Positions 6,802 through 48,000 of a stretch of DNA of 64,000 nt are shown in pieces. The stretch covers positions 19,458,506 to 19,522,505 of the forward strand of contig JAUZTB010000057.1 in assembly GCA_034780895.1 (NCBI GenBank), read 5' to 3'. The stretch is from Rhynchobatus australiae (taxonomy: Eukaryota). Position numbers and translations under genes: made by a program. The first letter of the stretch is position 1. Every line of letters starts with the position of its first letter. Below the pieces are notes generated by a model. That model was not told where the DNA came from and made no database searches. It saw nothing but the letters and a program-made list of their open reading frames with translations.

Positions 6802-25197
<18,396 letters not shown>

Positions 25198-26454
25198 AAG
25201 GACAATGCCATGGACAATTTTTAATCCAGATAAACTTCTTTGATCCTGATGAAATGGTTGTTGACTCCAGTNNNNNNNNNNNNNNNNNNNNNNNNNNNNN
25301 NNNNNNNNNNNNNNNNNNNNNNNNNNNNNNNNNNNNNNNNNNNNNNNNNNNNNNNNNNNNNNNNNNNNNNNACATTTGGAAATGAGATTATTTCAGCTGA
25401 GGAGACTGAAATGAGCAAAACCTGTCATGCAGCAAACAAATTTCTTGTGGCCTATATTGCCTCTTGTGAGTGCTTGAGCTGGTTTGATGGTGGAATTTTG
25501 TGTTAACTGCTCTATACTGGGTGGAACTGTCTCTTTTGAAAATGGTATCAAAGTTGGCATTAACCTGTCTCTCTGTATAGGTTGACCATTCATGCTACTA
25601 GTAGATTAAATTTGCATCCATTTGAGTTTCTTCCTAAAATTTGAAGCACTGGTGTGCAATGCATGGCACAGCATAGGAGATGCACATACACCTTTGGTGA
25701 ATTGCATTACTGTAACTCTTCATCCCTGGCAATGTGCTGTATTTTATTGGTATCCAAAATCCCTTTACAACAGGAGTTATCCCATAGAAGTTCATTAACT
25801 ACTTTTGTATTTTGTGCTTCCCTACATACAAAACTCAAGAATTTCAAGAAACAAATTTCTTTTGTTATTGCACTGAGTACTTTGAAACTGAAGTGCTGTT
25901 TGCAATGATGTGGGAAATATGGTGCCGATGGAGCAGATACTACCATTTAAAGGGATTTCATTTGTGATGGTGTTGTGAATATCATGCAAAAAGCTTTAAA
26001 GTTTTTATTCTGGTTGAAATTTCATCTTGGCTCCTGTTATATTTCTTCAGTTTAGAAACTTCTATTGCCCTATGGTTAAATTCTTGAAGCATTTTTCAAT
26101 ACATACTGCTGCTTTTCCAAATCTTGAATAATTTCAATATTTCCCCTTTTTGTATTCTTTCTAAATCTGAAAGAGTTCCTGTGCTTGTTTTGTGATATGA
26201 AAGTTTAATGCTAGAATTATTACACCATCTGTACTAGTGGTTGCAATACCTCCCATCAACAAAATGCACTGTCTGGGTTACACTGACAGCATTACCTAAA
26301 GCCACAACTGCCACCACCTAGCAGGACAAGAGCAGTAGGCACAGTGGAACACAACCTTCATGTTTCCCTCCAGGTTGCACACCATCCTGATTTGGAAATG
26401 TATCATTGGTCCTTCTTCATAACTGGGTCAAAATCTTGGCAATCCCACCCCAAC

Positions 26455-27720
26455 AAGCCAGCATGGATTCATGAAGGGAAGATCCTGCCTGACCAACCTA
26501 TTGGAGTTTAAGGAAATCTCAAGTAGGATGGATAAGGGAGAGGCTGTGGATGTTGTGTATTTGGATTTTCAAAAGGCCGTCAAGGGGCTGTACAAGAGGC
26601 TGCTTAATAAGATGGGAGCTCCTGGAATTANNNNNNNNNNNNNNNNNNNNNNNNNNNNNNNNNNNNNNNNNNNNNNNNNNNNNNNNNNNNNNNNNNNNNN
26701 NNNNNNNNNNNNNNNNNNNNNNNNNNNNNNNNNNNNNNNNNNNNNNNNNNNNNNNNNNNNNNNNNNNNNNNNNNNNNNNNNNNNNNNNNNNNNNNNNNNN
26801 NNNNNNNNNNNGTTTTGTGGCTAAGTTTGCAGATGACACCAAGATACGTGGAGGAGTAGGGAGCACTAAAGAAACAAGAAAGTTGCAGAGAGACTTGGAT
26901 AGTTTAGGAGAATGGGCAAAGAAATGGCAGATGAGATTCAATGCTGAGAAATGTGCGGTTGTACACTTTGGAAAAAGAAATAAATGGGCAGATTATTATT
27001 TAGATGGGGAGAAAATTCAAAGTACAGAAGTGCAAAGGGACTTGGGGGTCCTCGTGCAGGATCCCTGAAAGGTTAACCACCAGTAAGAAAAGCGAATGCT
27101 ATGCTGGCATTCATTTTGAGAGGTATAATGTATAAAAGTAAGGAAGTGTTGATGAGGCTCTATGGGGCACTGGTGAGGCCTCATTTGGAATACTATGTTC
27201 AGTTTTGGACCCTTATCTTAGAAAGGATGTACTGATGTTGGAGAGGGTTCAGAGAAGCTTTACGAGGATGATTCCTGGAATGAAAGGGCTTACTTATGAT
27301 GAGTGTTTGTTGGCTCTTGGACTGTACTCACTGGAGTACAGAAGAATGAGAGGGGACTTCATAGAAACAGTTAGAATGTTGAAAGGACTGGACAGAGTAG
27401 ATGTGGCTAAGCTGTTTCCCATGGTGGGTGAGTCCAGGATCAGAGGGCACAGTCTTAGAATTAGAGGTTACCCACTTAGAACAGAAGTGAGAAATTTTAT
27501 TTAGCCAGAGGGTCATGAATTTATGGAATTCGTTGCCACATACAGGTGTGGAGGCCCGATCATTTGGGGTGTTTGAGGAGATTGATCGGTATCTAATTAG
27601 TCGAAGGATATGGGGAAAAGTCTGGGAATTGTGGCTAGGTGGGAACAGTTTAGCATAGTGAGGTAGTGCAGCAGACGCGATGGGCCGAATGGCCTACTTC
27701 TGCTCCTTTTTTGTCTTGTG
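26455..27720 (+). mobile_element. CR1 LINE, RT to 3' end, with frameshifts
   Basis: QHGFMKGRSCLTNLLEF, YLDFQKA, KFADDTK, LERVQRSFTRMIPGMKGL; 3' GGGCCGAATGGCCTACTTCTGCTCCT. Confidence 0.92.
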
Positions 27721-29439
27721 ATCTGGTGAACAACACTCGAGTTCCTTTTGACAAAAGGCCTGCAGCAGTTCCAGACAGCAGCTGCTCGGGACAATTGGAG
27801 GTGAGCAGCAACTACTGCCTGAATCCTGAGAACTTAATTTTTTTAAAAAAATCATTACCATGCTGTTTTTACTATATTTTTAATTTAATACCTAAATCAA
27901 ATATTTGAAAATATCCAAGATAAGCCTGTAACTCCTGATCTCTCTTCCCTGGATATCTCAGATTTCAAGGGTTCATATCCTTCCTGAAAATGGTGTCTGG
28001 TCTTTAGCATGATGCATGAGCCATTAGCCATCCTTCATTACCCTGGGGAATCACATTGCTGTGGGACCTCCATTCACAAGTAGCAGTCCAACTATTTTCA
28101 TCATTAGTTTCTGGTGCCAGCTTCCAACTGACCAGATTTATGAATACAACCTTGCAATTTTAATATTTGACCTCCTGACCTGGTCCAATACAGTAGCAAG
28201 TAGGCTACTCTATTTCTTTTAAAGAATTGTACATAAGTTGATCTAAGCTAGTTGGGCCATAATTATGAAGGGGGAGGCTGACTATAACCTAACATAATCA
28301 AAAGACAGTCAATGTTTGTTTTATTATTTTAAGTGCTTAATAAGAGATCATTTATCCCACAAAATTAGTTTACCAACAGCCGAATTAAAACAGACTGACC
28401 TACGATTTTCTGGCTTATCAGTTGAGCACTAATATATTGCAGACTGCTGTGAGTCATTTATGGTGGTGATCAGCAATAAGTGTAATATTTATTGTTTTGG
28501 GGTATGGCTTACCTTTTCATTGAATTTTGGATAACTGTAGTCTGCATCTCTCTCTCTGTTACTTTTCTGTACCATAATGGAACTTTAACACAAGTCCTTG
28601 TGATTTATTTGTCTTGAATAACTTGTACCATTTCTTTGAATTATAAATGATCCTACAATACTAATATGTGCCACTACTAAACAGTCATGCACTTATTTAG
28701 TATCTTTACTGCTGCCTTATTTGTCATTATAGGCCTTGCTATTTCACAGCCCTTGATTATTCTCCTCTTTTTAAAAAAAAAAGAAACAAACTACAAAACA
28801 GAAGTTGGTCACACTTTGGGACTTTATTTTATCTTGATACAAATTTCTAAATTGTGTAGTTTGTGGTAAAAAATCACCATAGTAACATCTTGTATTCATT
28901 ACATTGTATGTTTAAAATGCAAGTCATCCCAAAAAGTTCCACAGGGATCATTATGAAACAGTCTAGCAATGACCAAATTCAGGAAATTAGAATGGTGACT
29001 AAAAGTGAAGTCAGAGATGGATTTAATGGAATCGCTTGTACGAGAGTGGTCCATAGAGTTGTGGGAAGAGAAGATAGAGCTTAGGGTCTGAGCTTCTGAA
29101 AAAGGAACTTCCAGTGGTGGGGTGATTTAGGTTTGGGGTATGCAGGAGGAGTGCAGCGATCAGACAGCTACAGGTGATTTTGCCATAAGGATGTACATTT
29201 GGATACGGGTAGCAAAGTTTTGGTTGAGTGCACATTTAGTGGGCTTGAGATGGGGTGCTGGCCATAGCAACTCCGGAATAGTGGAGTCTTAAAATAATTG
29301 AGTTGTGCAATTGAATTTAACAGCACATGAGCTGAGGTGGTTGTTAAAGTGGTGAAATGGGTAGTCTTGGTGATGGAGAGGATATGCGGTCAGAAAAAAA
29401 CACGGACCACACATGAACAATCATAGTTCATCTAAAGTG

Positions 29440-30600
29440 ACTACTCAAGAAAAGGGGGAGAGAGAAAATTGGGAACTACAGGCCAGTCGACTCATTCACA
29501 GTAATTGGAGAATATTCTGGAATCCATGATGCAGCAAGTGGTAACAGGACACCGAGAAAATGGTGCGATTTGTTGACTAATTTTGTTTAAGGATGAAAGC
29601 AGCCGGGTAGATAACGGGGAAACAATGGATGTAGTTTTGATTTTCAACATCATTCAGTAAAGTGTCTTCAAATGCAGTGCTGACCTTTAGTGTGAGAGGA
29701 AGGGAGACTGGCTGGAGTTGTGTACGGTACTGAGACCTCACTTGGAGGAGTATTTCTAGTTATGTTCTCCATGCCTATGGAAGGGTATGAGTTGCTGAGA
29801 GGTGATGTAATGTAGACTCATGGATTGGGTATGAGGAATGAGCAGCTTATCCTTTGAAAAGTGGTTCAATAAAACAACGGTAGTGAGATTGCCTTTGGGA
29901 AGTGATCTCTGTGAAACAACCATTTGAAAGGAATTGATTCACGTGGAGAAGCTATTTCCCCGGCTGGGCTTGGCCTCAATGCTGGGGATGACCAGTTTGG
30001 ACCGAGATAAAGAAATCTATTTCCTCAGCGTTTTGAATCTTCGGAATGTTCTACCCCAGAAGGTTGTGGGTGCATGTTCGTATTCAAAGCTGAAATCAGT
30101 CGCTGAGGGAATTGTGTGGTTCTGGGGATTGAGCAAGAACCTGGAATTGTCCAGGATCAGCCGTTGTAGTAAACAGTGGGGCAGCTGNNNNNNNNNNNNN
30201 NNNNNGGGGTGGTGCGATTGTTTATGTTCTTAAACTCTTCTGTGCCACACAATGTGATTGCTCACAATGGCTGATGGCGGGGCCGGGGTTACTATAAAGT
30301 ATGGAAGAAGGTTGGTTAAATGACAGGAATCAACAAGTAGGAATAAATAGATGAATTCCAGTGGGCAGGAAGCTACAAGTGTTATACCAGAAGGATCTCT
30401 GCTGGGGCCTCGGCAACTTAGAATCGACATTAATGACTTGCATAAAGGGAAGTGTGATGTATCCACGGCAAGACAAAAGTTGTCTGGAAAACCATGAACA
30501 GTATGGGAGAAAAGAGTGATGGATCGGACGTTAAAACCAAAGAAACCCTGAAATTGCTTTAAATGCTGGTCTGGAGCACTCTTCCCATAAGGGAGGTGGC
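29440..30600 (+). mobile_element. Highly decayed CR1 fragments
   Basis: GNYRPV-like sequence at about 29472 and scattered CR1 RT/3' remnants. Confidence 0.55.
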
Positions 30601-30799
30601 GAGGCTACCCCTCACCACATTAACAAAAAAGTGTCTGGCTATGCAACTGAGATAATGTAATAAGGCTGCTGACTGAGACCTGTGTGGGCTGAAAGGACCC
30701 TCTCTCTGCACCTGAAATGTCGTGATCATAAATATTACCCCTTGTATTATTATCTTGCATGAGCATTGGTAAGAGTTCAAAGTACAATTGGACCCTAAG

Positions 30800-33700
30800 A
30801 CCTTGGAGAGAATGTGATTTGTTCTGTCAACCCGGCTAATTTCTGCTGTATCCGGGTTAGGAGGAGATTTCCTCAGTTGTTGAGCGGGTGCCAAAGGAAG
30901 TAAATCGCCCCACTTCACCACCTATCAAATAAATAACGGAGCTTGATTTACTCGTGTATATTGAGACTGAGAGAGCGGTATTGGGGATCCATGTCCGTTA
31001 ATCCAAATGGGGGAACTCGCCCAGAGATGAAGGTGAAGGTCTGGGAAGTAACGGGGGTTGGAGGAGACAGACAGATGTCCGGCAAGTCCTCAGCAAAATT
31101 CCAAAGTGAGGTGGGAGCTGGTGGGAGGGCACCATGGTCGGGTGATTTCATGGGTCATCAGTGGTAATTAATTTGTTCAGTTATCTGGGCAATTCCGTAA
31201 TACGCACTTTCTTTCTGCCTTTTTATGCCACAGAAAACATAACTTGTTTTTACTAAACAGCAAGAGAGCAGTAAGCTTCGAGTGGACTTTGTCTCCAGAG
31301 AAGCAATTACGGCTAATAGCTTTCCTGATCAGCTCGTTAATGGCCTGTTTCCTCTGAAGACAGCAGAGGAGCAGGCAATGATTTGATAGCAAGAAATCCT
31401 GATTGGATTAGAGGCCCATTTGCTCCTGGTTGGTGGGGGATAATGTGCCTGTTGCCAGAGCAGTTTGATCCAGGATTGATGAAATAGCAATTCGTGCCTG
31501 ACTTTTGTGTTCGCTTGTTTTTTTCTCCAAGTTTTCCCTTGTACACAAATAACCGAGAGCTCCCGCGCCACGCACACTGATAATTGGTCATCGATGAGGA
31601 ACCATTTGTCTTGGTTAATAGTGAATCCGCTAGTTCTGAATATTCGAACCACGTTGCAAACTCACTGTCTGAGAATAAACCAGTAATGTATTCTACAGTT
31701 GCAATAAATACGACCAAACCCACACATGTGCCAATTTCGAAATTTACTGTCAGCGATTGCGGAAAAATGACTATTCGAGAGAACACTACAAGCCATTCTG
31801 TACATGTTTTAAAACACAATGTGCAGCCGTTTTACTAACTAAATTAATTTGATCCTATCGTCTACTTTCTGCCCAGAATTGACAGTGTCATGTCCTGGAC
31901 GGGCCTGGATCTGGGGCAGTTCTGCGTTCTTTACACGCCCCGAATAACCATAACGCAAACATCCTTTGTCACCACACAACAGGCGCTTCCAATAATGTGT
32001 TCATTATTAATCTTCCCCTTTGACCTGAGCACTTCCAGCGTTTTCTGTTGTATTTCCCTTTTTGATTTTATTTGAGGTGGCAGTGGAAAATCTGATAAAC
32101 AGGCACTTGCACTGAGGAATAATTGCAGAATAGTTTGCACAACCTGTGCTCTCTGTATTTGGGTGCTTTTCCCCGTTGTTTCCAAAGAGCTTGAGGTTTC
32201 TGTGGCGTAGAGTTACTTTAAGGCCCACGGCCACACCTATTCCACCAGCTGTGCACGAACAACAGGGTGAATGTCGGCTCGTCATCTGACAGGCGAGGCA
32301 GTGTTTGTCTTTGGAGCTGGACACCCTTATTTGTACCATTTGAATGTATTGAATATTCGAACAGTAATAGAAGTACAAATGATCTCAACAAAGCCTGAAA
32401 TTAGTAGAGGTGGAAAGTAAATTNNNNNNNNNNNNNNNNNNNNNNNNNNNNNNNNNNNNNNNNNNNNNNNNNNNNNNNNNNNNNNNNNNNNNNNNNNNNN
32501 NNNNNNNNNNNNNNNNNNNNNNNGGAGCTTTTCGTCTGGGGGAAACATTAAAACAATTTCCTCGGGAGGCACCGAGAAGGGTAAGGACCTCTTAGCCTGA
32601 AGTAGCGGAGAGGCAGCCGGATCCGGCGATTTATAAAGTTTTGCCTTTAGTTCCCAATAATTTAGAAGGTGCAACAGAAAATTATATATCTGTGTATTTA
32701 CGTGGACGTCAGGTAATTTATTTTAAAAATTTCATAGACAGCAGCCGGGGCCTTGAATGAATTCCTCAGTAACTGAGAGTCTGGTACTAAACTGCAGGTC
32801 CACACCGGAGAAAGCAATGCGGTAGACGAGAGAAAAGTGACTGTGTGGTGAACTAAGATGGTCATCTCGACATTATCAAAACACGGCAATGTGGGGAACA
32901 AGTTATAGTTGAGCCGAAGTAAATCGAGCGGCTTTAGGGACATGTTATAAATGGATACTGACGAGAAACTCAACTTTGTCAAAACCTTTATACCAACACC
33001 TGGAAATTAGCAGAAAGCATACTGTCTGTCAAAGAACTCAAAACATTTTTATAGTATTTTTTCCAGAAAATTAAAATAGTTACAGCTACTCACAGGCTAT
33101 GCTCTAAAATAGTAAGATGCTTAATTTGAACGCGCCCTTTCTCAATGATATTGGAGTGTCCACTTTACTTTGACTCCAATTTCTCATATTCGTTTAATCG
33201 TTTGTTTGTGAATTGCAAGACGGTGATGTATAAACACCTGGTGTCACCCCTTCATCTCTACCATCCCATCGAGGAGACTACAATGTATCCTCAAAAGGTA
33301 TTGATGAAAGCCGCTGTAAATTAGACCCTTGTGTCGCACAATAATTTCTGCCGTTGGTACTGCGGCATTGCTCTATAATTATACAGCTCGAAACTAAAAG
33401 ATCGAGATTAAAGCCCAGAGCTGAATTGAAAGTCCATGTGAAGGAAGCCTCCACGGTATTAAATATTTATGTTAAAACATCCCGCACCATTTAGAAACAA
33501 TTGACTGTGACTGTGATGTTAATGTGCATCCAGGAAAGAAAGAATTGCGCGCAGTCTTCTCGTCTCGTCATTAAACTAAAGTCGGTTTGAATGTGACTGG
33601 GGCGATCTCGTTAGTTTAAGTATCGTGTGGTTTTCTAGTTTTTAAAAAGTGAAGATCTGAGGTTTTAAATGAACCAGATGAGATAAGGTGACGTTGCCTT

Positions 33701-35100
33701 CAGTAATAACACAGGCAACATGTAGTGGTAAGGTTATTTCACCTCGCGTTACTTTCTGGGTTTTCTCCGTACAGAGGGGTGACCGACTGTAGCTGGGAGA
33801 GACGTGTGCTGGTGGAGCCTGTCTTCCCTCGAGTAACCCACATCCCTTTTCTCGAGGTCTACTCCCAAGCATGGTTGGCAGAAAGGAGCGGGCAGAGCCG
33901 TTCGCTGTCCACTACCTGCGGGTGCTGAAAGAACTCCTCACCTTCGTCCTCTTCAGTTACACGGTTTTACTGGGAGCGTTGGTGATAGCTGGATGGACAA
34001 CTTACTTACTGGTCGTTAAGTGACCTGCATCTTGTCCATCAGAGAGGAGAAATGCTTGGAATGAGATATATGCAAAGCTTTTAACAAATGAGAAACTCCG
34101 CGTAGTGTCTGCGAAATAGAAGATGTGTTTGTTGTGTCCTCGGATCACGTAATGTAACCAGGACCAACCCGTGCGAGTATGTAGTTATCCACATGGCAAA
34201 TCTATTCAAATATATCTTCATTTCGCTATCGTATCAATTATTGTACACATTATGTTCACATCAGGTATGTAATCTTGAATAAAGAAAAATATCCAGAATC
34301 AGCATATGGCTCTCCGAGTTGACGTTTACTTATAAGGATCGTTGCACATTTAAAAATAAAGAGAAAGGAGATGGGATCGGTGCCCAGGTCACAGATTTTA
34401 ACACAGGAAATGGGGAAAGAAAATTGTCGGGCAAGAACATTTAATAAAAATCAAGTATAGTTCAGTGCCCAAAACATCAAGGCGAAAGAATGAAAAAAAT
34501 ATGGATTCTGGAAACAGGTTTAACACAAAAGTGACGCCTGCAAGAGGCTAATTACTGAAAATAAACTCCAAAATAACTGTTGAAAATTCGTTTGAAATAT
34601 TTAAGTTTTCTTAAAATTCGTATTTGCTCATTAAACTTTTAAAATCAATCCAGTGTATCCACTGCCGTCAGATTAATTACTAGCGTTTTCTCTTAAGTGG
34701 TGGACCTTCATGGCAGAATATAGGGACTTGGTTGTGGATTTTCAATAATAAACCCAGCAAGTCGTGCAGTGGGTTGAAATTTATCTTTTAACGAAAAATA
34801 GGAGGGTGCAGACTTTAGTGTCCCGTTTTTATGATTAAAATGGGAGAACCAGGCATCTCTTGCTTTATGTGGAAGCACAATTCTTATCTATGCAGCCACA
34901 GGCAGAGGATTGCCCGCCGTCACTTCCCTTCCTCCCTCCACACTATTACATCTGGTGCCTTCCCCACAAGCACAACTCGCCTTGGATCCCACTGTTTTTT
35001 TTTAATCCATATGGCGCCCCAGCATTTCATCTGAAAACATTGCATTACTTTCAATGTGTGTACTCATGACACCCATTTCCACCTCAGCACCGTCTTTCTT
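30800..35100. promoter_or_regulatory. CpG-retaining, repeat-poor domain, probable promoter/regulatory region of the microprotein gene
   Basis: By eye, CG dinucleotides are much more frequent than in neighbouring DNA despite moderate GC; TATAAA 32632-32637; donor-like sites at 32581 (GTAAGG) and 32713 (GTAATT); boundaries approximate. Confidence 0.55.
33871..34023 (+). CDS. Candidate 50-aa single-pass/tail-anchored membrane microprotein (family not recognised)
   Basis: MVGRKERAEPFAVHYLRVLKELLTFVLFSYTVLLGALVIAGWTTYLLVVK*; Kozak AGCATGG; first ATG after the acceptor ttttctccgtacag| (exon starts 33775); in-frame stop upstream at 33790; AATAAA at 34278 and 34355. Confidence 0.65.
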   Translation: MVGRKERAEPFAVHYLRVLKELLTFVLFSYTVLLGALVIAGWTTYLLVVK

Positions 35101-37239
35101 AATCCTCCTGGTGTCACTGAATTGCCAGACCTCTTGTCTGACACTCAGTACTGGATGAGAGGTGAAGCTGCTATTTTTGATGTTTTCACTAAAAGTTCTG
35201 TTCGCTCGTCATCAACTTCAATCCACTAAGGCTGAACCAGACACTTCACATCCCTTGGTGATCCTAAAATAATATTTACGCTACCACTGAGGTCTATTCC
35301 CACCCCTTCACTACTTCGGCTTACTAATTGCTTTGTTGGCTCTGTACAGATACAGTCCAATGCAGTTAAGTCACTGTCATATAGTGTAACAATGAAAATA
35401 CTTTTTAACAGTAACAGTACTTTTTTTACAATGTAACGGCAAAGTATTTTCATTTTTGGAAAGTTGTCTAACAAGCTTACAGATTTTACACAATAATTCA
35501 TTTTTAAGTAAAGATGAACCACTTACATTTTTTTAAGTTGTTACCTTATTCTGTATTATCTTTTATTTGCAACATTTAGGGATATTTTATTACATAAATG
35601 GCAGATTTGGATTTTATTTTGCAAAGTACATCTGTCACACAAAGGTTATAAAGGTTAGTGGCTTTTGGTGATGCTAGATTCGCTTTAGCTTCTAGCATTT
35701 GTGGGTGTTTCTGTTGTTTGCTTGCAAATGGAAAGGTATTTGCTTAGATAGTCCCTCTTCCTTGTATGTATCTTACCTGCCCCATGCTCTGGGTTTGAGC
35801 TTTAAAACCTGTGTAGTTTCTCTGCACTGCTTCATGGGTGAAATTCAATCAGTGTAAGTCAAAGTTGCCAAACACTCGATAATAGACCAGAAACAAGAGG
35901 TCAGGTTTCAAAAAATTTCTATTTTATCCTCATTGATATCATTTTGCAGACTGCTTCACAGCATTACAGTCTATTCTGGCTCAGGGTAAAGCCTCCTATC
36001 CAACCACTTTGGAGAATTTTAGTAGGAAGGAATCCAAAATTTCTTCTGTGGGCCAGGGAAGTTTTCTCTCTCCGCAGGTGCCGCAGATGCTGCTTGTCCT
36101 GTTCTTTGGGTAACTGCCTAACTGGTGGATAAATCTTAAATCAGAATACCAAGATGTGTGGGAACATTGAAATAAACTTCAAATGAGGCTCCTGGACATT
36201 CTGAGTTTTACAGACTATCTGGGCTACAAGGGAAAGTCATCATATGTGCTCTCATGACTTTGGCTAAACACTAATGGAACAGGTAGCATTAAAGCAAACC
36301 TGGGATGGGATTCTTCAGCTAAAGTGCACTGAGAGTATGACATCAGCACTTATTGAGTATAATAATTGACAAAGATAATAACCTGCTTACAGTAAACAGC
36401 AACTCAGCATAAAAATCTATAGAACNNNNNNNNNNNNNNNNNNNNNNNNNNNNNNNNNNNNNNNNNNNNNNNNNNNNNNNNNNNNNNNNNNNNNNNNNNN
36501 NNNNNNNNNNNNNNNNNNNNNNNNNNNNNNNNNNNNNNNNNNNNNNNNNNNNNNNNNNNNNNNNNNNNNNNNNNNNNNNNNNNNNNNNNNNNNNNNNNNN
36601 NNNNNNNNNNNNNNNNNNNNNNNNNNNNNNNNNNNNNNNNNNNNNNNNNNNNNNNNNNNNNNNNNNNNNNNNNNNNNNNNNNNNNNNNNNNNNNNNNNNN
36701 NNNNNNNNNNNNNNNNNNNNNNNNNNNNNNNNNNNNNNNNNNNNNNNNNNNNNNNNNNNNNNNNNNNNNNNNNNNNNNNNNNNNNNNNNNNNNNNNNNNN
36801 NNNNNNNNNNNNNNNNNNNNNNNNNNNNNNNNNNNNNNNNNNNNNNNNNNNNNNNNNNNNNNNNNNNNNNNNNNNNNNNNNNNNNNNNNNNNNNNNNNNN
36901 NNNNNNNNNNNNNNNNNNNNNNNNNNNNNNNNNNNNNNNNNNNNNNNNNNNNNNNNNNNNNNNNNNNNNNNNNNNNNNNNNNNNNNNNNNNNNNNNNNNN
37001 NNNNNNNNNNNNNNNNNNNNNNNNNNNNNNNNNNNNNNNNNNNNNNNNNNNNNNNNNNNNNNNNNNNNNNNNNNNNNNNNNNNNNNNNNNNNNNNNNNNN
37101 NNNNNNNNNNNNNNNNNNNNNNNNNNNNNNNNNNNNNNNNNNNNNNNNNNNNNNNNNNNNNNNNNNNNNNNNNNNNNNNNNNNNNNNNNNNNNNNNNNNN
37201 NNNNNNNNNNNNNNNNNNNNNNNNNNNNNNNNNNNNNNN

Positions 37240-37824: not shown

Positions 37825-38345
37825 TAGAGTCACAGAGTAAAAGAGTTGTACAACATAGAAACAGGTCCTGTGGCCCTCCGCATCAATGCCGACATCACGC
37901 CTGTCAACACTAATCCCACATGCCTGCATTAATCCATATTCCTCTATATCTTGCCCACTCAAGTACCTGTCCAGATGCCTCTTAAATGTTGTTACTGTTC
38001 CTGCCTCCTGTTCCTCAAAACCATATTCTCCAGCAGCTCATTCCAGATACCAACTACCGTGTGGAGAGAACCACCCTGCAGATCCCATTTAAACTGCCTC
38101 CCTATCACCTTAAACCTATTTTCGATGCCCTGCTGTGGGAAACAGACACTGGCCATCTACCCTATCTATGCCTCTCTTATATACTTCTGCCATGTCACTT
38201 CTCAGCCTCCTTTGCTACAGGGAAAACAGACCAAGTAACTTATTCCTTATTCCTCAAGCCCTTCAATCCAGGCAACATCATGGTGAATCTTTTCTGCACC
38301 CTCCTCAGTGTGTTCACGACCTTACTGAAGTGTAGAACTCCACAC
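37825..38345 (-). mobile_element. CR1 LINE 3' fragment
   Basis: LRRVQKRFTMMLPGLKGL; CR1 3' UTR. Confidence 0.8.
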
Positions 38346-38639
38346 ATTTGTGTTATTCCGATTTTTGCTACCTTAGCTTGAGCTGAGATTGTTGGAATTC
38401 CCACAGCCTCCATCGAACTAATCCTCAATCCATCCATTTTTACTTCTTTCTCACTGACTAATGAGCAGCAGAAATTAAAAATTTATTACTTATAAGAAGT
38501 CATGTATAGAAGTCAGCCTAAACTGAAATTCCAACCTGTTCTCTAGTCTAATACAATGTATTAGCATTAAATATCTGTAGAAAGTTTACACAACTTTAGA
38601 CAAACAGCTGAACTTCAAAATGATGTTCAACATACAATG

Positions 38640-40995
38640 GATTTCCCTTTTAGCAACAGAAGTGTGACTACACTAGTGGGATTATTCTATGAGTCACCAG
38701 CTAGTGGGAAGGATATTGGGGAGCAAATTTGCAGGGAAAATGCTGAGGTGTACAAAAGACATAGAGCAGAGGGCGTCACAGTAGCTCAGCAGGTAGTGCT
38801 GATGGCTCTAGAGCAGGAAGATGGAGCATTTGACATGCCAGGCTGATTTTAGAAACTTCAGAGGGGGATTAAAAGAGGAAATAGGAGAGACAGAGTGGGA
38901 GCATGAGGAAAGGCTGCAGCAACAATAAAGTGGATCCTAAGATATTCCCAGGCATGTGGACAGGAAAAGGGCTGTAAGAGGAGAGGTGAGGTCAATGAGA
39001 GACCAGAAGGGAAATTTACTCATGGAGACCGAGGGCACAGTTGGGGCTGTGCCTTCAGCAGGTGGAAGTTGAAGAGGCCCTGGCCTGATTATGGTCTTCC
39101 AAACAACTGTAGATCCAGGGCTGGTGCCCAAGGACCTGAAATGTTGTAAAAATGAATGTGGTGCTAAATCCTTGATGATGACTAAAAGTTCTAAACAACA
39201 ATCAGAGGCGGAATTAGCACTTGGAGAGTGTGGGTCACTTAGAGAAAGCCTGCATGGATTTTTAAAGGAAAATTGCTTCTAATTAATGAAAAAGCTTTTT
39301 GATGAAGTAATGGAGGCTGAGGGATATAAGGGCCTGTCGCACTTGGATAGAAAATTGGCTAGATTGGCTTTAAGTTCCTGGGTGTCAACATCTCCGAGGA
39401 TCTGTCCTGGGCCCAACACATTGATGCAATCGTGAAGAAGGCAAACCAGGAACCAAAGAATATTGCAAATCTCTTTAGATATCTGATGGAGAGCATTCTG
39501 ACTGGTTGCATCACAGCCTGGTATGGAGGCTCCAATGCAGCGGATCACAAGAGGCTGCAGAGGGTTGTAGACTCAGCAGTTCCATCAAAGGCACAAACCC
39601 CCTCCCCCCCCCTCCACCATCGAGGACATCTTCAAGAGATAGTGCTTCAAGAAGCCGGCATCCATCATTAAGGACCCTCACCATCCGGGACATGCCTTAT
39701 TCTCGTTCCTATTATTGAGGAGGAGGTACAGGAGCCTGAAGATCCACAGTCAACATTTCAGGAACAGCTTCTTCTGCTTTGCCATCAGATTTCTGAATGA
39801 TCCATGAACCCATGAACACAACCTTGTTATTCCTTTTTTTTCACTATTTATTTATTTTGTAATTTATAGTTTTTATATCTTTGCACTGTACTGCTGCCAC
39901 AAAACAACAAATTTCATGTCACATAAGATAATGATGATAAACCTGGTTCTGACAGATAACAGGTCACAGAAAGCAATGGCAAAAAGTGGTTTCAGACTGG
40001 AGGGAAGTATATATCTGAGTTCTGGAGGGACTGATACTAGGATTACTGTTTTCCTTNNNNNNNNNNNNNNNNNNNNNNNNNNNNNNNNNNNNNNNNNNNN
40101 NNNNNNNNNNNNNNNNNNNNNNNNNNNNNNNNNNNNNNNNNNNNNNNNNNNNNNNNNNNNNNNNNNNNNNNNNNNNNNNNNNNNNNNNNNNNNNNNNNNN
40201 NNNNNNNNNNNNNNNNNNNNNNNNNNNNNNNNNNNNNNNNNNNNNNNNNNNNNNNNNNNNNNNNNNNNGAGAGGTAGTGTAATCTAAAGACTACAATTCT
40301 ACAAGGGAGCAAGACCAGAGAGATATGGGTTATATGTGACTAGTTCATTGAAAATGGCAGGGAAGTTTTGAGAAAGTGGTTCAAAAAGAAGAGGGGATTT
40401 TGGGCTGTATAAATAAATACAAAGAGCACAAGAGCAAGGAAGTCATGGCGAGCAGATGTGAAACACCGGTTTGGCCATAACTGGAGTATTGTGTCCAGTT
40501 TGGGGATTTAAACTTCAGAAAAGATGTAAAGACTTTGGAGAGGGTGTGGAAGAGATTTTCCAGAAAGGTTCCAGGATTATGTGGGTTGACTGGAGAAGCT
40601 GGGATTGTTCTCCTTGGAAATGGCAAGTTTGAGAGGGGACCTTATAGAGATATTTGAAATCATGAAGGGTGTAGGCAGAGTAGATGGAAAAGAATTACTC
40701 TCTTTATGAGGAGGTCACGAACGAGGAGATAGAGAATGAAAGTGATTGACAAAAGAGCCAAAAGTAACCCATGGTAAGTCTTTTTACACTGTGAATGGTC
40801 AGGGTGTGGAATGCATAGCCAGGGCTAGCAGTGGAGACAGATGCAATTGTAGTGAGCAAAGGGAAGCTGGATACATATCTGAAAGGGAAGAAGTTGCAGG
40901 GCTGTGTGGAAGACAGCAGATTGGAACCAGTTGAATTTCTCCTGCATGGGGCTAGTACAGACTCAATGGGCTGATTGGCACCCTTTTGCAGTGTA
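38640..40995 (+). mobile_element. Decayed CR1 LINE interrupted by a Rex-like insertion
   Basis: QHGFLK-like motif near 39250, WIENWL at about 39345 continuing after 39950, LEYCVQF and LERV motifs near 40480-40550. Confidence 0.7.
39375..39950 (+). mobile_element. Rex/Babar-like LINE 3' fragment
   Basis: FLGVNISEDLSW; ESILTGCITAWYGGSNAADHKRLQRVVDSA. Confidence 0.85.
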
Positions 40996-44859: not shown

Positions 44860-45034
44860 ACCGGTGCCCGGAACAGTGGGGGGTGGGGGGGTGTCGACCG
44901 CGGGGACCTCGGGCACCTCCCGCTGGTTGAAAGCGGCCGGGCAGTTCCCGCAGCGCTGACGTCACCCATTGGATCACGTGACGTCGTTTACCCTTCCGAC
45001 GTGGTGACGTGACGGTGCTTGGAACGTTGATACA
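44860..45034 (+). promoter_or_regulatory. DIABLO CpG-island promoter with CRE, CCAAT, E-box and E2F-like sites
   Basis: TTCCCGC 44945-44951; TGACGTCA 44957-44964; ATTGG 44968-44972; TCACGTGAC 44974-44982; further TGACGT near 45005. Confidence 0.75.
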
Positions 45035-45084
45035 ATGGCTGCGCTGTTCTATAGGTGGATGCGTCCGTGTAGCCGTTTGACGAG
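45035..45084 (+). CDS. DIABLO: DIABLO coding exon 1
   Basis: ACAATGG; [16 protein letters not shown](R)|gtaacg; 50 nt. Confidence 0.88.
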
Positions 45085-48000
45085 GTAACGTCCCCATTTC
45101 CAACGTGTGAGCGGCGGGGCTGCCGGGGTCTCCCCCAACCCCGGGGCTCTTCCTCCACCGCCCCTGGGGCTCTTCCTCCACCGCCCCCGGGCAGTCACGG
45201 TCCCACTGCTGCCGACTCTCACCCACGTCTATTTTGTCTTTTTGAAGGTCCTTCTCCTTGGTGTTGTCCCAGCGCAGGGTCCCCGCTGGAAGGTGGCAGA
45301 AGGTGGCACTGGGGCTGGGAGCGACGCTGGCCGCTGTTCCTATTTCACAGGTACACCACAGCCTTTCCGAAGTTGTTACGTCGTGTTAAATGTCCTTGCT
45401 CCTACAGGTAGTTCGGACCGTGAGTATTAGCTAATGTCGAAGAAGTAAAACCAGTATGTGCAGCCTGAGAGCAACAATTAATGTTCTTGTATAATATTGA
45501 CACTTAAAATCGAACGTTTCAAATGCTTTCGGCCTATTCTGCGAGGTGCCATTGGATAATTTGGATCAATCCTGTTGGTAGGATGTTGCGACATGATCCA
45601 TTTTAGGAAGTCTGGCCAAGGAAGCAATATGCAAAGACGTGAAAAGCAGAACTCCCGAAAGGAATGGGAACAGAAGTAGGCTGCAACACCCCGAGAGCCT
45701 GTTGTAACACTCAGTAGCGTATGTTGTATCTTTAGTGATAAAACTTTCCGTGCAGTTGTGTCTGAGATGACTTCCTCCTTCCAGAACCATGGTTTCCCCT
45801 CTACCATTGACAGAGCCCTTGGCTACACCTCATTTATTTCGCACACCTCGGCCTTTGCCTATCTTGAACAGAGCAAGGACAGAGTTCCCCCTGTCCCCCG
45901 TACTACCAGACCATCCTTTACATTCAATAGGTCGTCCTTTGCAGGTTCTCCCACTGTCAACAAGATTCCATCATTAGACACCTCTTCCCCTCCCTTCTCC
46001 TTTCAGCATTCCAGAGGGACCATTCCCTTTGCATCTGGTCTGTTCCTCAATCTGCACCGAACACTCCCTTTCTTCAGGTACTTTCCCATGCAACACCTGT
46101 CCATTTACCACTTCCCTCCCCATCATCCAGGGACCCAACACCTTCCAGGTAAAGCAGTGATACCCTTGCACTTCTCCCACCTAGTGTATTACATTCTGGG
46201 CCTTCAATGTAGTCTCCTCTACATTTGAGAAACTGACTGCAGATTGGGTGACCGTTTTGTGGAACATACATTCATTTTGCACAGTGACCCTGAACTTTCT
46301 GTTGGCTGCTACTTTACTTGTTCCACTCCCATTCTTGCCTTTTATAAAAAGGCCCAAAGTAAGCTTGAGGAACAGCACATCTGTACAGAATTTTACACTT
46401 TCAGTAACTTGTTTTCTCAGTATCAGNNNNNNNNNNNNNNNNNNNNNNNNNNNNNNNNNNNNNNNNNNNNNNNNNNNNNNNNNNNNNNNNNNTTCCATTC
46501 AGGCAGTCTGACCTTTCGTTCATTACCCATGGCTCTGCATTTTGCAGCTTTTACATTCTTTTGTGCTTTTTCTCTCTAACAGATCCCAATTCATAGTTTT
46601 TATATTCTTTTGTTCATGTTCTCTGTCTTTATTAGCCTATCAACTGTCCCTAACTGGCACAGAATAGGAGACAAGGCCTGGGGAAGATCAGGCATGGTTA
46701 TATTGAATGGTGGGCCATGCTTGAGGGGCCAACTGACCAATTTTTATATTATTTTGTACTCCTGTAACTGGGTGAATTCCTTAATAGCTTATCTCCATGG
46801 TAACTATGTCAAAATCCTCTTTTTTTTCTTCATTAGTTTGGTTGTATCAGATTTAGGATTTACACTGCCCTCCTTAAACAAGGTATTGATCCAGCAGGAA
46901 TTTATCATGTATGACCATTCTGCAAGGGTAAAAATCAGGACTTCACTAAAAGCACTTCATTTCACATTAACCAAACCTTTTAAAGTGCTTTTCCTAGTTT
47001 TTGGTCGAAGGAATCTTTGTACTTGACTAGTAAAGATACCAGTTGACTTATTTTTAAAAATATACCTATCTGTTTTCAGATGTTATCCAGAGTCACATTA
47101 CATGTAACTTATCCATTCTGGGCTTAGCAGATTTTGTCAGCAAGATGCATATAAGCATTAGAAGGCTAACGTTGCTTACAGGTGGTGAATATTTTTTTCC
47201 ACATGTATAAATATTCTTGCTGCATTGACATTTTTCTTTCCAAACAACAAAGTTATTTTAAAAAAAAAACCCTTCCAGATCTCTCCACATGTCTATTGAC
47301 ATATCTCACTGAGTTTTAAAATATTTTCCAGTAGCATGGTATTTAAATTCATTAATGTGTTTGTGATTGGTAAATCTGCTAAAACTCCTACTATCTTGTT
47401 AATAGATTAAATTTAAGTTTTCGGTCATATTTAAAAACAAGTGACTTGTTCAAATGATTTAATTAAATGAAACTGTTCAACTGAAATATGATTCGGTGCA
47501 CTTGCTTGGGTGTGCTAACTAACAAAATGCTGCTGCTGCTGCAGCTTCCAAATGGAAGGAGTCATATCTAAAAAAAAAATTGTGTATTTTCCTCCGTAGC
47601 ACCAACCTACATCTCTCAATCATGAAGATTTAATCAAACGTGCTATTTCATTGGTTACGGATGGTGCCAATACCTTTCTGTCACAAACTACTTTTGCACT
47701 AATTGATACTTTGACAGAATATACGAAGGTACGTGAAGCAGAATTGCTTTTTTTTTTGGCTAAATATTTGGTAAAAATTGTAAAGTTACAATGCATATAA
47801 CTTTCTCCTCCCTCAGCAGTTATCATCGCACTGCTTCCTTCACTTGCTCAGCCAGAGCAGTGGCACTTCATGGTACCTTAAANNNNNNNNNNNNNNNNNN
47901 NNNNNNNNNNNNNNNNNNNNNNNNNNNNNNNNNNNNNNNNNNNNNNNNNNNNNNNNNNNNNNNNNNNNNNNNNNNNNNNNNNNNNNNNNNNNNNNNNNNN

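What the first reader, a model, noticed from the sequence alone, without database searches (positions are those of the whole stretch)
33775..34360. Hidden spliced gene for a 50-aa membrane microprotein between VPS33A and DIABLO
Seen: the ORF 33871-34023 (MVGRKERAEPFAVHYLRVLKELLTFVLFSYTVLLGALVIAGWTTYLLVVK*) is below the ORF-track cutoff but has every mark of a real terminal coding exon. It has a strong polypyrimidine/AG acceptor at 33774, no ATG in the 96 nt before it, an optimal Kozak context (A at -3, G at +4), an in-frame stop upstream (so it is not the tail of a longer protein) and AATAAA at 34278 and 34355. The peptide has a charged N-terminus, a ~28-residue uncharged hydrophobic stretch and one terminal Lys, i.e. 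a tail-anchored layout. Knowledge: this size and layout matches membrane micropeptides such as sarcolipin, phospholamban and myoregulin. I know of no protein-coding gene between human VPS33A and DIABLO and cannot name the family. Inference: an unannotated or poorly characterised microprotein, perhaps lost in mammals. The likeness to SERCA regulins is architectural only.
Basis: partly seen in the sequence, partly recalled or inferred. Interest (0 to 1): 0.85.

Follow-up and report, generated by a model that had tools for sequence, protein, structure and literature searches.

The report
Ancient vertebrate membrane microprotein, hidden twin
This short reading frame is a real gene, the cartilaginous-fish version of an annotated but unstudied 44-residue human protein; it is predicted to be one membrane helix that likely works as a small partner of a larger membrane protein in nerve and adrenal cells, and the same genome holds a second, unrecorded copy that likely dates from an early vertebrate genome duplication.

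Summary
The ORF (33871-34023, 50 aa) is real but neither unannotated nor lost in mammals. It is the orthologue (61% identical) of human LOC128125816 / ENSG00000284934 and mouse Gm49027, listed in the Mudge 2019 supplement as an uncharacterised 44-aa CDS in a DIABLO 5' UTR exon, expressed in neuroblastoma (human) and in neurons and adrenal (mouse). Relatives run from sharks to mammals; dN/dS against a bird is 0.14/1.70; 20 of 40 core positions are at least 97% invariant. It fails the sequence tests for sarcolipin and phospholamban, both of which lie elsewhere in this genome. Three additions that I did not find in print: (1) an intact 48-aa paralogue on a CLIP2/BCL7-bearing contig, likely an ohnologue; (2) a non-coding element 2.4 kb upstream, conserved in a fish and a bird, with a paired-homeodomain (P3-like, PHOX2-type) site that fits the reported expression; (3) the peptide persists where DIABLO is 11 kb away or apparently not the neighbour, so it likely acts in trans, not as a DIABLO uORF. 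Partner and function are untested; splicing here is not shown.

The parts
33871..34023 (+). Coding sequence of the 50-aa microprotein, orthologue of human LOC128125816 / ENSG00000284934; whole CDS in one exon
33901..33933 (+). Codons 11-21: amphipathic helix before the membrane segment (hydrophobic moment up to 0.66 here, 0.81 in a teleost); L16 and E21 near-invariant
33934..33990 (+). Codons 22-40: predicted membrane-spanning core (best 19-residue Kyte-Doolittle mean 2.38); small residues S29, A36, A40 on one helix face
33991..34023 (+). Codons 41-50 and stop: likely interface and short tail; position 41 takes Arg in 36 of 184 rows and Glu in the paralogue; W42, T44, Y45, K50 near-invariant, stop position fixed
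33750..33774 (+). Candidate splice acceptor (12 of 16 pyrimidines, CAG|A); comparable acceptors precede the ORF in the bird locus and the paralogue; use not shown by RNA
33775..33870 (+). Untranslated 5' part of the exon: no ATG, in-frame TAG at 33790
34262..34270 (+). Strong candidate splice donor (GT at 34265) that could carry the exon on towards DIABLO; untested
34278..34360 (+). Two AATAAA hexamers (34278, 34355), candidate poly(A) signals; three more to 34752
31299..31472 (.). Conserved non-coding element (71.6% over 183 columns to a teleost locus, E 3e-11; also in a bird locus), single copy in the genome; likely enhancer or promoter of the microprotein gene
31400..31410 (.). P3-like paired-homeodomain dimer site inside the element: strict TAAT-NNN-ATTA in the bird, one half-site TGAT here and in the teleost; a second AT-rich site at 31379
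31250..34500 (.). CpG-rich stretch (observed/expected mostly 0.6-1.0, against mostly under 0.45 on either side) covering element and exon; candidate first-exon donors at 32581 and 32713
24931..25197 (+). Frame holding the last coding exon of VPS33A (upstream neighbour; same order in teleost locus L004)
45035..45084 (+). Likely first coding exon of DIABLO, in its own CpG island, 11.0 kb after the microprotein stop; later DIABLO exons to 50548 match PF09057

Best explanation
The frame is a real single-exon gene under purifying selection, the orthologue of human LOC128125816, and its product is predicted to be one membrane helix that likely acts in trans as a small accessory subunit packing against a larger membrane protein, likely in neurons and adrenal-type cells. 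Shown: the ORF, its orthology, its selection, its synteny, the paralogue's sequence, the upstream conserved element. Inferred anatomy: residues 11-21 form an amphipathic helix lying at the cytosolic membrane face, 22-40 cross the bilayer, W42/Y45 sit at the far interface and a short tail ends at a fixed Lys. Inferred action: it has no catalytic or soluble domain, yet positions on all sides of the helix are fixed over about 450 million years (date recalled), far more than a plain anchor needs; a small-residue face (S29, A36, A40; A, G, A in the paralogue) and polar or aromatic residues inside the membrane (Y30, T31, W42) would make the contact. Inferred expression: paired-like homeodomain dimers such as PHOX2A/B would bind the upstream element and switch the gene on in neuronal and sympathoadrenal cells. 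The gene is likely older than the jawed-vertebrate genome duplication; its place in the DIABLO 5' UTR of birds and mammals is likely a matter of neighbourhood, not of mechanism. The partner is unknown.
For: Orthology: human P0173 = NP_001401927.1, mouse Gm49027, 61% and 59% identical; same CDS in PMC6886504 supplement. Synteny: VPS33A upstream in teleost locus L004; fused gene models join the peptide to VPS33A (pangolin, cobra) or DIABLO (bamboo shark, penguin, echidna, rhino, camel). Selection: dN 0.14, dS 1.70 to bird; dN 0.26, dS saturated to teleost. Invariance: 20 of 40 columns at least 97% over 186 distinct rows taken from 219 of 225 stored proteins; 188 of 193 motif-selected proteins end exactly at K50. 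Shape: one helix 11-49, pLDDT 83.5; hydropathy peak 22-40. Trans action: DIABLO is 11 kb away with its own CpG island here; models in Perca and Nerophis fuse the peptide to a PP2A B55 subunit and in Coregonus to a GOLD-domain protein, which points to other downstream neighbours; DIABLO is single-copy in this genome while the paralogue lies on another contig. Expression: neuroblastoma-limited CAGE in human, embryo and neonate neurons and adrenal in mouse (PMC6886504 supplement); P3-like site aligned in three lineages; P3 sites are in over 85% of PHOX2B peaks in neuroblastoma lines (PMC13530268, passage).
Against: No partner, location or topology was tested; the accessory-subunit step rests on conservation alone. 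Many of the 186 rows are close kin (mammals, birds), which inflates invariance. The same PMC6886504 row says mouse RNA-seq finds transcription in most experiments, lists no sorfs.org support and leaves the peptide-support cell empty. The P3-like pattern was set after seeing the alignment; only the bird site is a strict P3, and the relaxed pattern occurs 6 times in 59 kb of window; PROP1, ALX4, ARX and others bind the same site. The element could serve VPS33A or DIABLO. The teleost neighbour argument rests on three gene-prediction fusions, not on read loci. The paralogue differs in most tail residues (W42 kept; T43-K50 mostly changed) and sits on a long branch.
Confidence: 0.55

Rival explanations
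1. It works like a regulin: it binds the M2/M6/M9 groove of SERCA (or of another P-type pump) in neurons and tunes calcium uptake.
For: Same size and layout as phospholamban and DWORF: amphipathic helix, then a C-terminal membrane helix (PMC8396278 passages). A conserved charged residue (E21, K/R20) lies at the start of the membrane helix, where regulins place a polar residue (Asn34, Lys27, Asp47 in that review). Regulins are diverse in sequence, so a failed profile match does not exclude the function.
Against: No Pfam family at E up to 10 for 24 of 24 members or for 3 further proteins. Genome searches with PF05366 and PF04272 find true sarcolipin and phospholamban elsewhere and do not list this locus. 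Those two score 5.6 and -0.6 bits on the family profile; profile-profile probability 0.2% (only two regulin sequences). No Asn in the membrane segment.
Confidence: 0.1
2. It is chiefly a conserved upstream ORF whose nascent peptide controls translation of DIABLO on a shared mRNA.
For: Annotated as co-transcribed with DIABLO in human, mouse and chicken. The stop position is fixed. A strong donor at 34265 could join the exon to DIABLO here too.
Against: DIABLO has its own strong downstream start site with general expression and its own CpG island 11 kb away here. The peptide is as conserved in teleosts whose gene models point to other downstream genes. The paralogue has no DIABLO near it. No donor scoring 8 or more follows the stop in 1.2 kb of the bird locus or 0.9 kb of the teleost locus.
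Confidence: 0.1
3. It is a mitochondrial membrane microprotein, functionally tied to DIABLO or to a respiratory complex, like other 5' UTR microproteins (MIEF1, MKKS).
For: Moderately hydrophobic helix with a basic residue at the C-end (Lys50, plus Arg41 in many fishes), a pattern that can target tail-anchored proteins to mitochondria (recalled). PMC6886504 notes that the MKKS 5' UTR CDS makes a mitochondrial protein.
Against: Acidic residues in the N-terminus and an invariant Glu21 do not fit a presequence (rule recalled). Respiratory subunits are usually expressed broadly, not in a neuroblastoma-limited way. Linkage to DIABLO is not constant.
Confidence: 0.13
4. It acts alone, as a homo-oligomer that forms a small pore or shapes membranes or vesicles.
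For: All-round conservation and a small-xxx-small motif (A36-A40; G-A in the paralogue) also fit self-packing; polar S29, Y30, T31 could line a bundle.
Against: S29, Y30 and T31 point to three different sides of an ideal helix (20, 120, 220 degrees), not to one pore-lining stripe; S29 is Ala in the paralogue.
Confidence: 0.1
5. The frame is a chance ORF or a pseudogene.
For: Single marks (acceptor, AATAAA) are common in the window.
Against: Homologues to E 1e-25 across jawed vertebrates, intact frame, dN/dS under 0.1.
Confidence: 0.01

Closest known systems
Human LOC128125816 / ENSG00000284934 (NP_001401927.1, UniProt A0A2R8Y4M2), mouse Gm49027
   Same: 61% and 59% identical, colinear to the stop; one coding exon; between VPS33A and DIABLO; no function assigned.
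   Different: Six residues longer at the N-end; 11 kb from the DIABLO start against about 370 bp in human (human figure from the coordinates, taking the nearby PhyloCSF region as DIABLO exon 1); own AATAAA cluster; has a paralogue in this genome, none seen elsewhere. PMC6886504 gave conservation to birds with a syntenic fish ORF; catshark and other predictions already sit in databases unnamed.
SERCA regulins (phospholamban PF04272, sarcolipin PF05366, myoregulin, DWORF, endoregulin, another-regulin)
   Same: 30-70 residue proteins with one C-terminal membrane helix; amphipathic N-terminal helix as in phospholamban and DWORF.
   Different: No sequence or profile likeness to sarcolipin or phospholamban; no Asn in the helix; longer hydrophobic run (28 residues); reported expression neuronal and adrenal, not muscle. 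Myoregulin, DWORF, endoregulin and another-regulin were not compared directly, only through the Pfam scan.
Conserved 5' UTR microprotein genes on bicistronic vertebrate mRNAs (MIEF1, MKKS, RAB34, ALDOA cases named in PMC6886504)
   Same: In mammals and birds the CDS lies in a 5' UTR exon of another gene and shows protein-level selection.
   Different: Here the CDS stands far from DIABLO with its own CpG-rich region and upstream conserved element, and the link to DIABLO seems not to hold in some teleosts.

Membership tests
LOC128125816 / Gm49027 orthologous group | Sequence likeness over the whole core, colinear to the stop | tested here: met
   61% to human, no gaps in the core
LOC128125816 / Gm49027 orthologous group | Position between VPS33A and DIABLO on the same strand | tested here: met
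   fused models in other vertebrates
LOC128125816 / Gm49027 orthologous group | Closer to the named members than any other locus of the genome | tested here: met
   only two loci in G000; of 228 blastp hits none but one 18.9-bit bacterial tie is as close to the paralogue
LOC128125816 / Gm49027 orthologous group | Co-transcription with DIABLO (as annotated in human, mouse, chicken) | tested here: inconclusive
   both a strong donor (34265) and AATAAA signals follow the stop; no transcript to decide
SERCA regulins | Tail-anchored layout: one membrane helix at the C-end | tested here: met
   definition from PMC8396278 passages
SERCA regulins | Sequence match to sarcolipin or phospholamban | tested here: not met
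SERCA regulins | Polar residue at the place of phospholamban Asn34 | tested here: inconclusive
   no Asn; K/R20 or E21 could fill the place but no alignment is supported
SERCA regulins | Binding to SERCA and change of its calcium affinity or turnover | not testable with these tools
   needs co-reconstitution or FRET
SERCA regulins | Fold likeness beyond a plain helix | tested here: inconclusive
   a single helix gives only generic matches, best Z 5.3
Ohnologue pair from vertebrate genome duplication | Homology of the two loci | tested here: met
   29.9 bits on the family profile against shuffle maxima 13.5 (2000) and 12.3 (1999); rough genome-wide E 0.002; 16 of 38 residues identical without gaps, stop in the same register
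Ohnologue pair from vertebrate genome duplication | Both copies lie in paralogous segments | tested here: met
   C57: CLIP-type CAP-Gly exon 0.13 Mb and BCL7 0.21 Mb from the gene; C66: its closest paralogue (54% over 188 aa) 0.76 Mb and BCL7 3.6 Mb from the second copy. Two marker families only; VPS33A, DIABLO and B3GNT have no match within 200 kb of the second copy
Ohnologue pair from vertebrate genome duplication | Duplication dated by a tree with an outgroup | tested here: inconclusive
   paralogue falls outside all 15 orthologues but on a very long branch; no jawless or invertebrate outgroup found
PHOX2 / paired-like homeodomain target element | TAAT-NNN-ATTA (P3) site | tested here: inconclusive
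   strict in the bird, one mismatch here and in the teleost, aligned in all three; definition PMC13530268
PHOX2 / paired-like homeodomain target element | Factor bound in vivo, element drives expression | not testable with these tools
   needs ChIP data or a reporter

The most novel reading that the evidence does not exclude
A two-member family of membrane microproteins arose before the jawed-vertebrate genome duplication; one copy is a direct PHOX2-type homeodomain target in sympathoadrenal and other neurons through an enhancer kept since sharks, was later drawn into the DIABLO 5' UTR of amniotes, and is an unrecognised subunit or regulator of a neuronal membrane complex and a lineage-restricted membrane protein of neuroblastoma; the other copy survives unannotated in cartilaginous fish.
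Probability: 0.25. Interest if true: 0.72.

Novelty: new member of a known kind. Interest (0 to 1): 0.45.

Why it matters
It still matters moderately: a human protein with 61% identity to a cartilaginous fish has no functional paper that my searches could find, and it is easily hidden because its human id is mapped to SMAC/DIABLO in expression tables. This locus supplies what the human locus cannot: evidence that the peptide stands apart from DIABLO, a paralogue that marks which residues matter (L16, E21, L23, F25, L27, Y30, T31, L33, L37, A40, W42), and a candidate enhancer that would explain the neuroblastoma and adrenal expression. Together these turn an ignored entry into a testable candidate for a new small subunit of a neuronal membrane complex.

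Tried and rejected
RNA: no RNA holder listed for the stretch; laying four runs on 30300-36300 gave contigs only, no joint at 33775; the one run guessed to be RNA gave four scraps, none on the ORF: no evidence either way; its difference table showed 40 of 462 rows and was not used. Homodimer prediction: no answer, scores 0.10 and 0.08 against a mark of 0.32; not evidence. Fold searches: Foldseek 0 matches; VIA wide search only generic helices, best Z 5.3. PDB sequence search with the profile: 0. ESM Atlas: best 0.85 and 0.78, unnamed clusters, leads only. Real fusion protein with DIABLO or VPS33A: rejected; the five DIABLO-fused models join at four different places, the GT at the Lys-stop junction scores 2.1 here and is absent in the bird, and the in-frame TAG at 33790 blocks a VPS33A fusion in the ORF frame. 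Extra upstream coding exon: 91 N-terminal extensions against 25201-33870 gave only the out-of-frame acceptor match and one 8-residue hit at E 0.035. The frames at 31341-31487 and 31584-31838 are not genes on this evidence: the first overlaps the conserved element, whose alignment has gaps that break frame. REST/RE1 site: 4 matches against 3.7 expected, none near the gene. Orthologues of the paralogue: none among 36 hits in 1.84 billion representatives, none in viral contigs; neither window protein nor paralogue is in the collection as an exact sequence. In one search the zero entropy at Y30, T31, A36, L37 came from my selecting motif; one search repeated it by profile. Brain microprotein atlas PMC13577902: no hit for this gene in the supplements searched; 7 of 19 files were not searched. 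Earlier findings of the scan: none on this locus.

Full report
Observation. The window shows the ORF 33871-34023 as quoted, with AG at 33773-74, no ATG in the 96 nt before the start, A at -3, G at +4, an in-frame TAG at 33790 and AATAAA at 34278 and 34355. Alone these marks are common: acceptors of this pyrimidine content occur 1.6 per kb and AATAAA 0.93 per kb (scored with recalled textbook frequencies).

Identity. The first search gave 16 homologues among 16 candidates, led by a catshark protein (82%) and an unnamed 88% protein, several named 'uncharacterized LOC128125816 homolog'. From these I infer that the window is from a cartilaginous fish. A profile gave 140 proteins among 8000 candidates scored, 120 listed; every named one is a jawed vertebrate: sharks, teleosts, amphibians, reptiles, birds, monotremes, placentals, marsupials too. 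The human member is NP_001401927.1 / A0A2R8Y4M2, 44 aa, the mouse member Gm49027, 61% and 59% identical. The human sequence is letter for letter the CDS in the supplement of PMC6886504 (Mudge et al. 2019; I saw main-text passages, one row of file 3 and part 4 of file 4, with the comment cell cut): ENSG00000284934, 'uncharacterised protein', in a 5' UTR exon of DIABLO, co-transcribed with it in human, mouse and chicken, while DIABLO has its own strong downstream start; human CAGE limited to neuroblastoma; mouse CAGE in embryo and neonate, above all neurons and adrenal, though mouse RNA-seq finds it in most experiments; a syntenic fish ORF without transcript evidence. So the gene is annotated and not lost in mammals. 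Ten library searches found no paper on its function: 0 papers for LOC128125816, for five further ids and for six more ids or peptide words, one table row where the id is labelled SMAC, and nothing relevant in the listings. Subscription journals are mostly not covered.

Selection and anatomy. Two loci came from the metagenome collection (2 of 146 pattern matches): L003, a bird by its sequence, and L004, a spiny-rayed fish by its sequence, with VPS33A exons upstream on the same strand. Over 40 core codons the window differs from the bird at 11, 3 and 19 first, second and third positions (dN 0.14, dS 1.70) and from the fish with dN 0.26 and saturated dS. Over 186 distinct rows (219 of 225 stored proteins passed the profile) 20 of 40 columns are at least 97% constant; many rows are close kin. 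188 of 193 motif-selected proteins end at K50. AlphaFold2 gives one helix, residues 11-49, pLDDT 83.5. Hydropathy peaks at 22-40; residues 11-21 are amphipathic. Position 41 is Arg in 36 of 184 rows and Glu in the paralogue, so the buried part likely ends near A40 with W42 and Y45 at the interface. S29, A36 and A40 fall at 20, 0 and 40 degrees on a helical wheel, one small-residue face; Y30, T31, G35 and W42 are fixed on other sides. A plain anchor would not need this; I infer helix-to-helix contact with a partner.

A second copy. The genome search listed a weak second hit (E 0.53). Read out, it is an intact 48-codon ORF with a 15-of-16 pyrimidine acceptor 56 nt before an in-frame ATG in good context, colinear with the family and stopping in the same register. 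It scores 29.9 bits on the family profile against maxima of 13.5 and 12.3 in 2000 and 1999 shuffles; scaled to the genome E is about 0.002. The two loci are each other's only hits; 16 of 38 residues are identical and third positions differ most (17/13/25). The gene's contig C57 has a CLIP-type CAP-Gly exon and BCL7 within 0.13 and 0.21 Mb; the second copy's contig C66 has the closest paralogue of that exon (54% over 188 aa) at 0.76 Mb and another BCL7 at 3.6 Mb; the names CLIP1 and CLIP2 are recalled. This fits an ohnologue pair, on two marker families. Against over-reading: no VPS33A, DIABLO or B3GNT match lies within the 200 kb read, no AATAAA or ATTAAA lies within about 800 nt after its stop, its branch is very long, no expression is shown, and no orthologue of it appeared among 36 hits in 1.84 billion representatives. 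No jawless or invertebrate member was named in any list.

Upstream element. Window 31299-31472 matches the fish locus at 71.6% over 183 columns (E 3e-11) and aligns with the bird locus too; it is single-copy and lies at the start of a CpG-rich stretch that runs over the exon. In it an 11-base site reads as strict TAAT-NNN-ATTA in the bird and with one TGAT half-site here and in the fish. PMC13530268 (abstract and passages) defines this P3 site for paired-like homeodomain dimers, ranks PHOX2B among the most cooperative binders and reports P3 sites in over 85% of PHOX2B peaks in neuroblastoma lines. That fits the expression reported for the human and mouse gene. The pattern was chosen after seeing the alignment; its relaxed form occurs 6 times in 59 kb of window and once in each other locus, there at the aligned place; other factors bind the same site (PMC10584192, one table passage). 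Which gene the element serves is inferred from position only.

Link to DIABLO. In human the CDS ends about 370 bp from a PhyloCSF region that I take as DIABLO exon 1; here the gap is 11,012 bases and DIABLO has its own CpG island. A strong donor at 34265 sits 13 nt before the first AATAAA, so the exon may be terminal, internal or both; the bird and fish loci show no donor of score 8 or more after the stop. Among 25 longer hits, fused gene models tie the peptide to DIABLO in five species and VPS33A in two, but to a PP2A B55 subunit in two fishes and a GOLD-domain protein in a whitefish. I read the fusions as prediction artefacts that reveal neighbours. With the paralogue lying far from the single DIABLO, the peptide seems to be kept regardless of DIABLO, which favours action in trans.

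Comparison with regulins. The layout matches (PMC8396278, passages), the sequence does not: no Pfam family for 24 of 24 members or three more proteins; this genome's own sarcolipin and phospholamban lie on other contigs and score 5.6 and -0.6 bits on the family profile; profile-profile probability 0.2%. It is not filed as a regulin; working like one stays a rival at about 0.1.

Verdict. Real gene and orthology about 0.97. Trans-acting accessory membrane helix in neuronal and adrenal cells 0.55; mitochondrial microprotein 0.13; regulin-like, DIABLO uORF and homo-oligomer about 0.1 each. The paralogue is a true homologue at about 0.9 and a functional ohnologue at about 0.65. Novelty: new member of a known but unstudied family, with a paralogue and an upstream element that I did not find described. 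Interest 0.45.

Noticed in passing
L002:1495-1641 minus (G000:C66:30281480-30281626): Intact 48-aa paralogue of the microprotein with its own acceptor and start context, on a contig that carries CLIP- and BCL7-type paralogues; not in the protein collection.
   Followed up: yes
window 31299-31472; L004:2643-2820; L003:2700-2845: Non-coding element conserved in cartilaginous fish, teleost and bird, with a P3-like homeodomain site and further AT-rich homeodomain-like words.
   Followed up: partly
window 34265: Strong splice donor 13 nt before the first AATAAA: possible choice between ending the transcript and splicing on to DIABLO.
   Followed up: partly
P0131, P0136, P0152, P0156, P0161 and L004:3838-4043: Spiny-rayed fishes and cods carry Arg in place of Gly41 and often a 15-25 residue longer N-terminus; all teleost rows seen carry Lys or Arg at position 24.
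   Followed up: partly
window 44960-45030: Several TGACGTCA/TGACGT-like words (CRE-like, motif recalled) just before the DIABLO start codon, inside its CpG island.
   Followed up: no
L005:1501-1596 and L008:1501-1665: This genome's own sarcolipin (31 aa) and phospholamban (53 aa) genes, on contigs C11 and C2.
   Followed up: partly
L036 (G000:C66:29773284-29773394, minus): A second, 85% identical copy of one CLIP-type CAP-Gly exon 215 kb from the first on the opposite strand, with an unlike 5' flank; stray duplicate or assembly artefact.
   Followed up: no
window 26400-27700, 37900-38500, 39300-39800, 45500-46300: Frames with the look of broken LINE reverse-transcriptase fragments between the genes (judged by eye).
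   Followed up: no
P0207, P0211, P0213-P0215, P0218, P0220-P0222, P0224: Public gene models wrongly fuse this peptide to VPS33A, DIABLO, a PP2A B subunit or a GOLD-domain protein, which hides the gene and corrupts those entries.
   Followed up: yes
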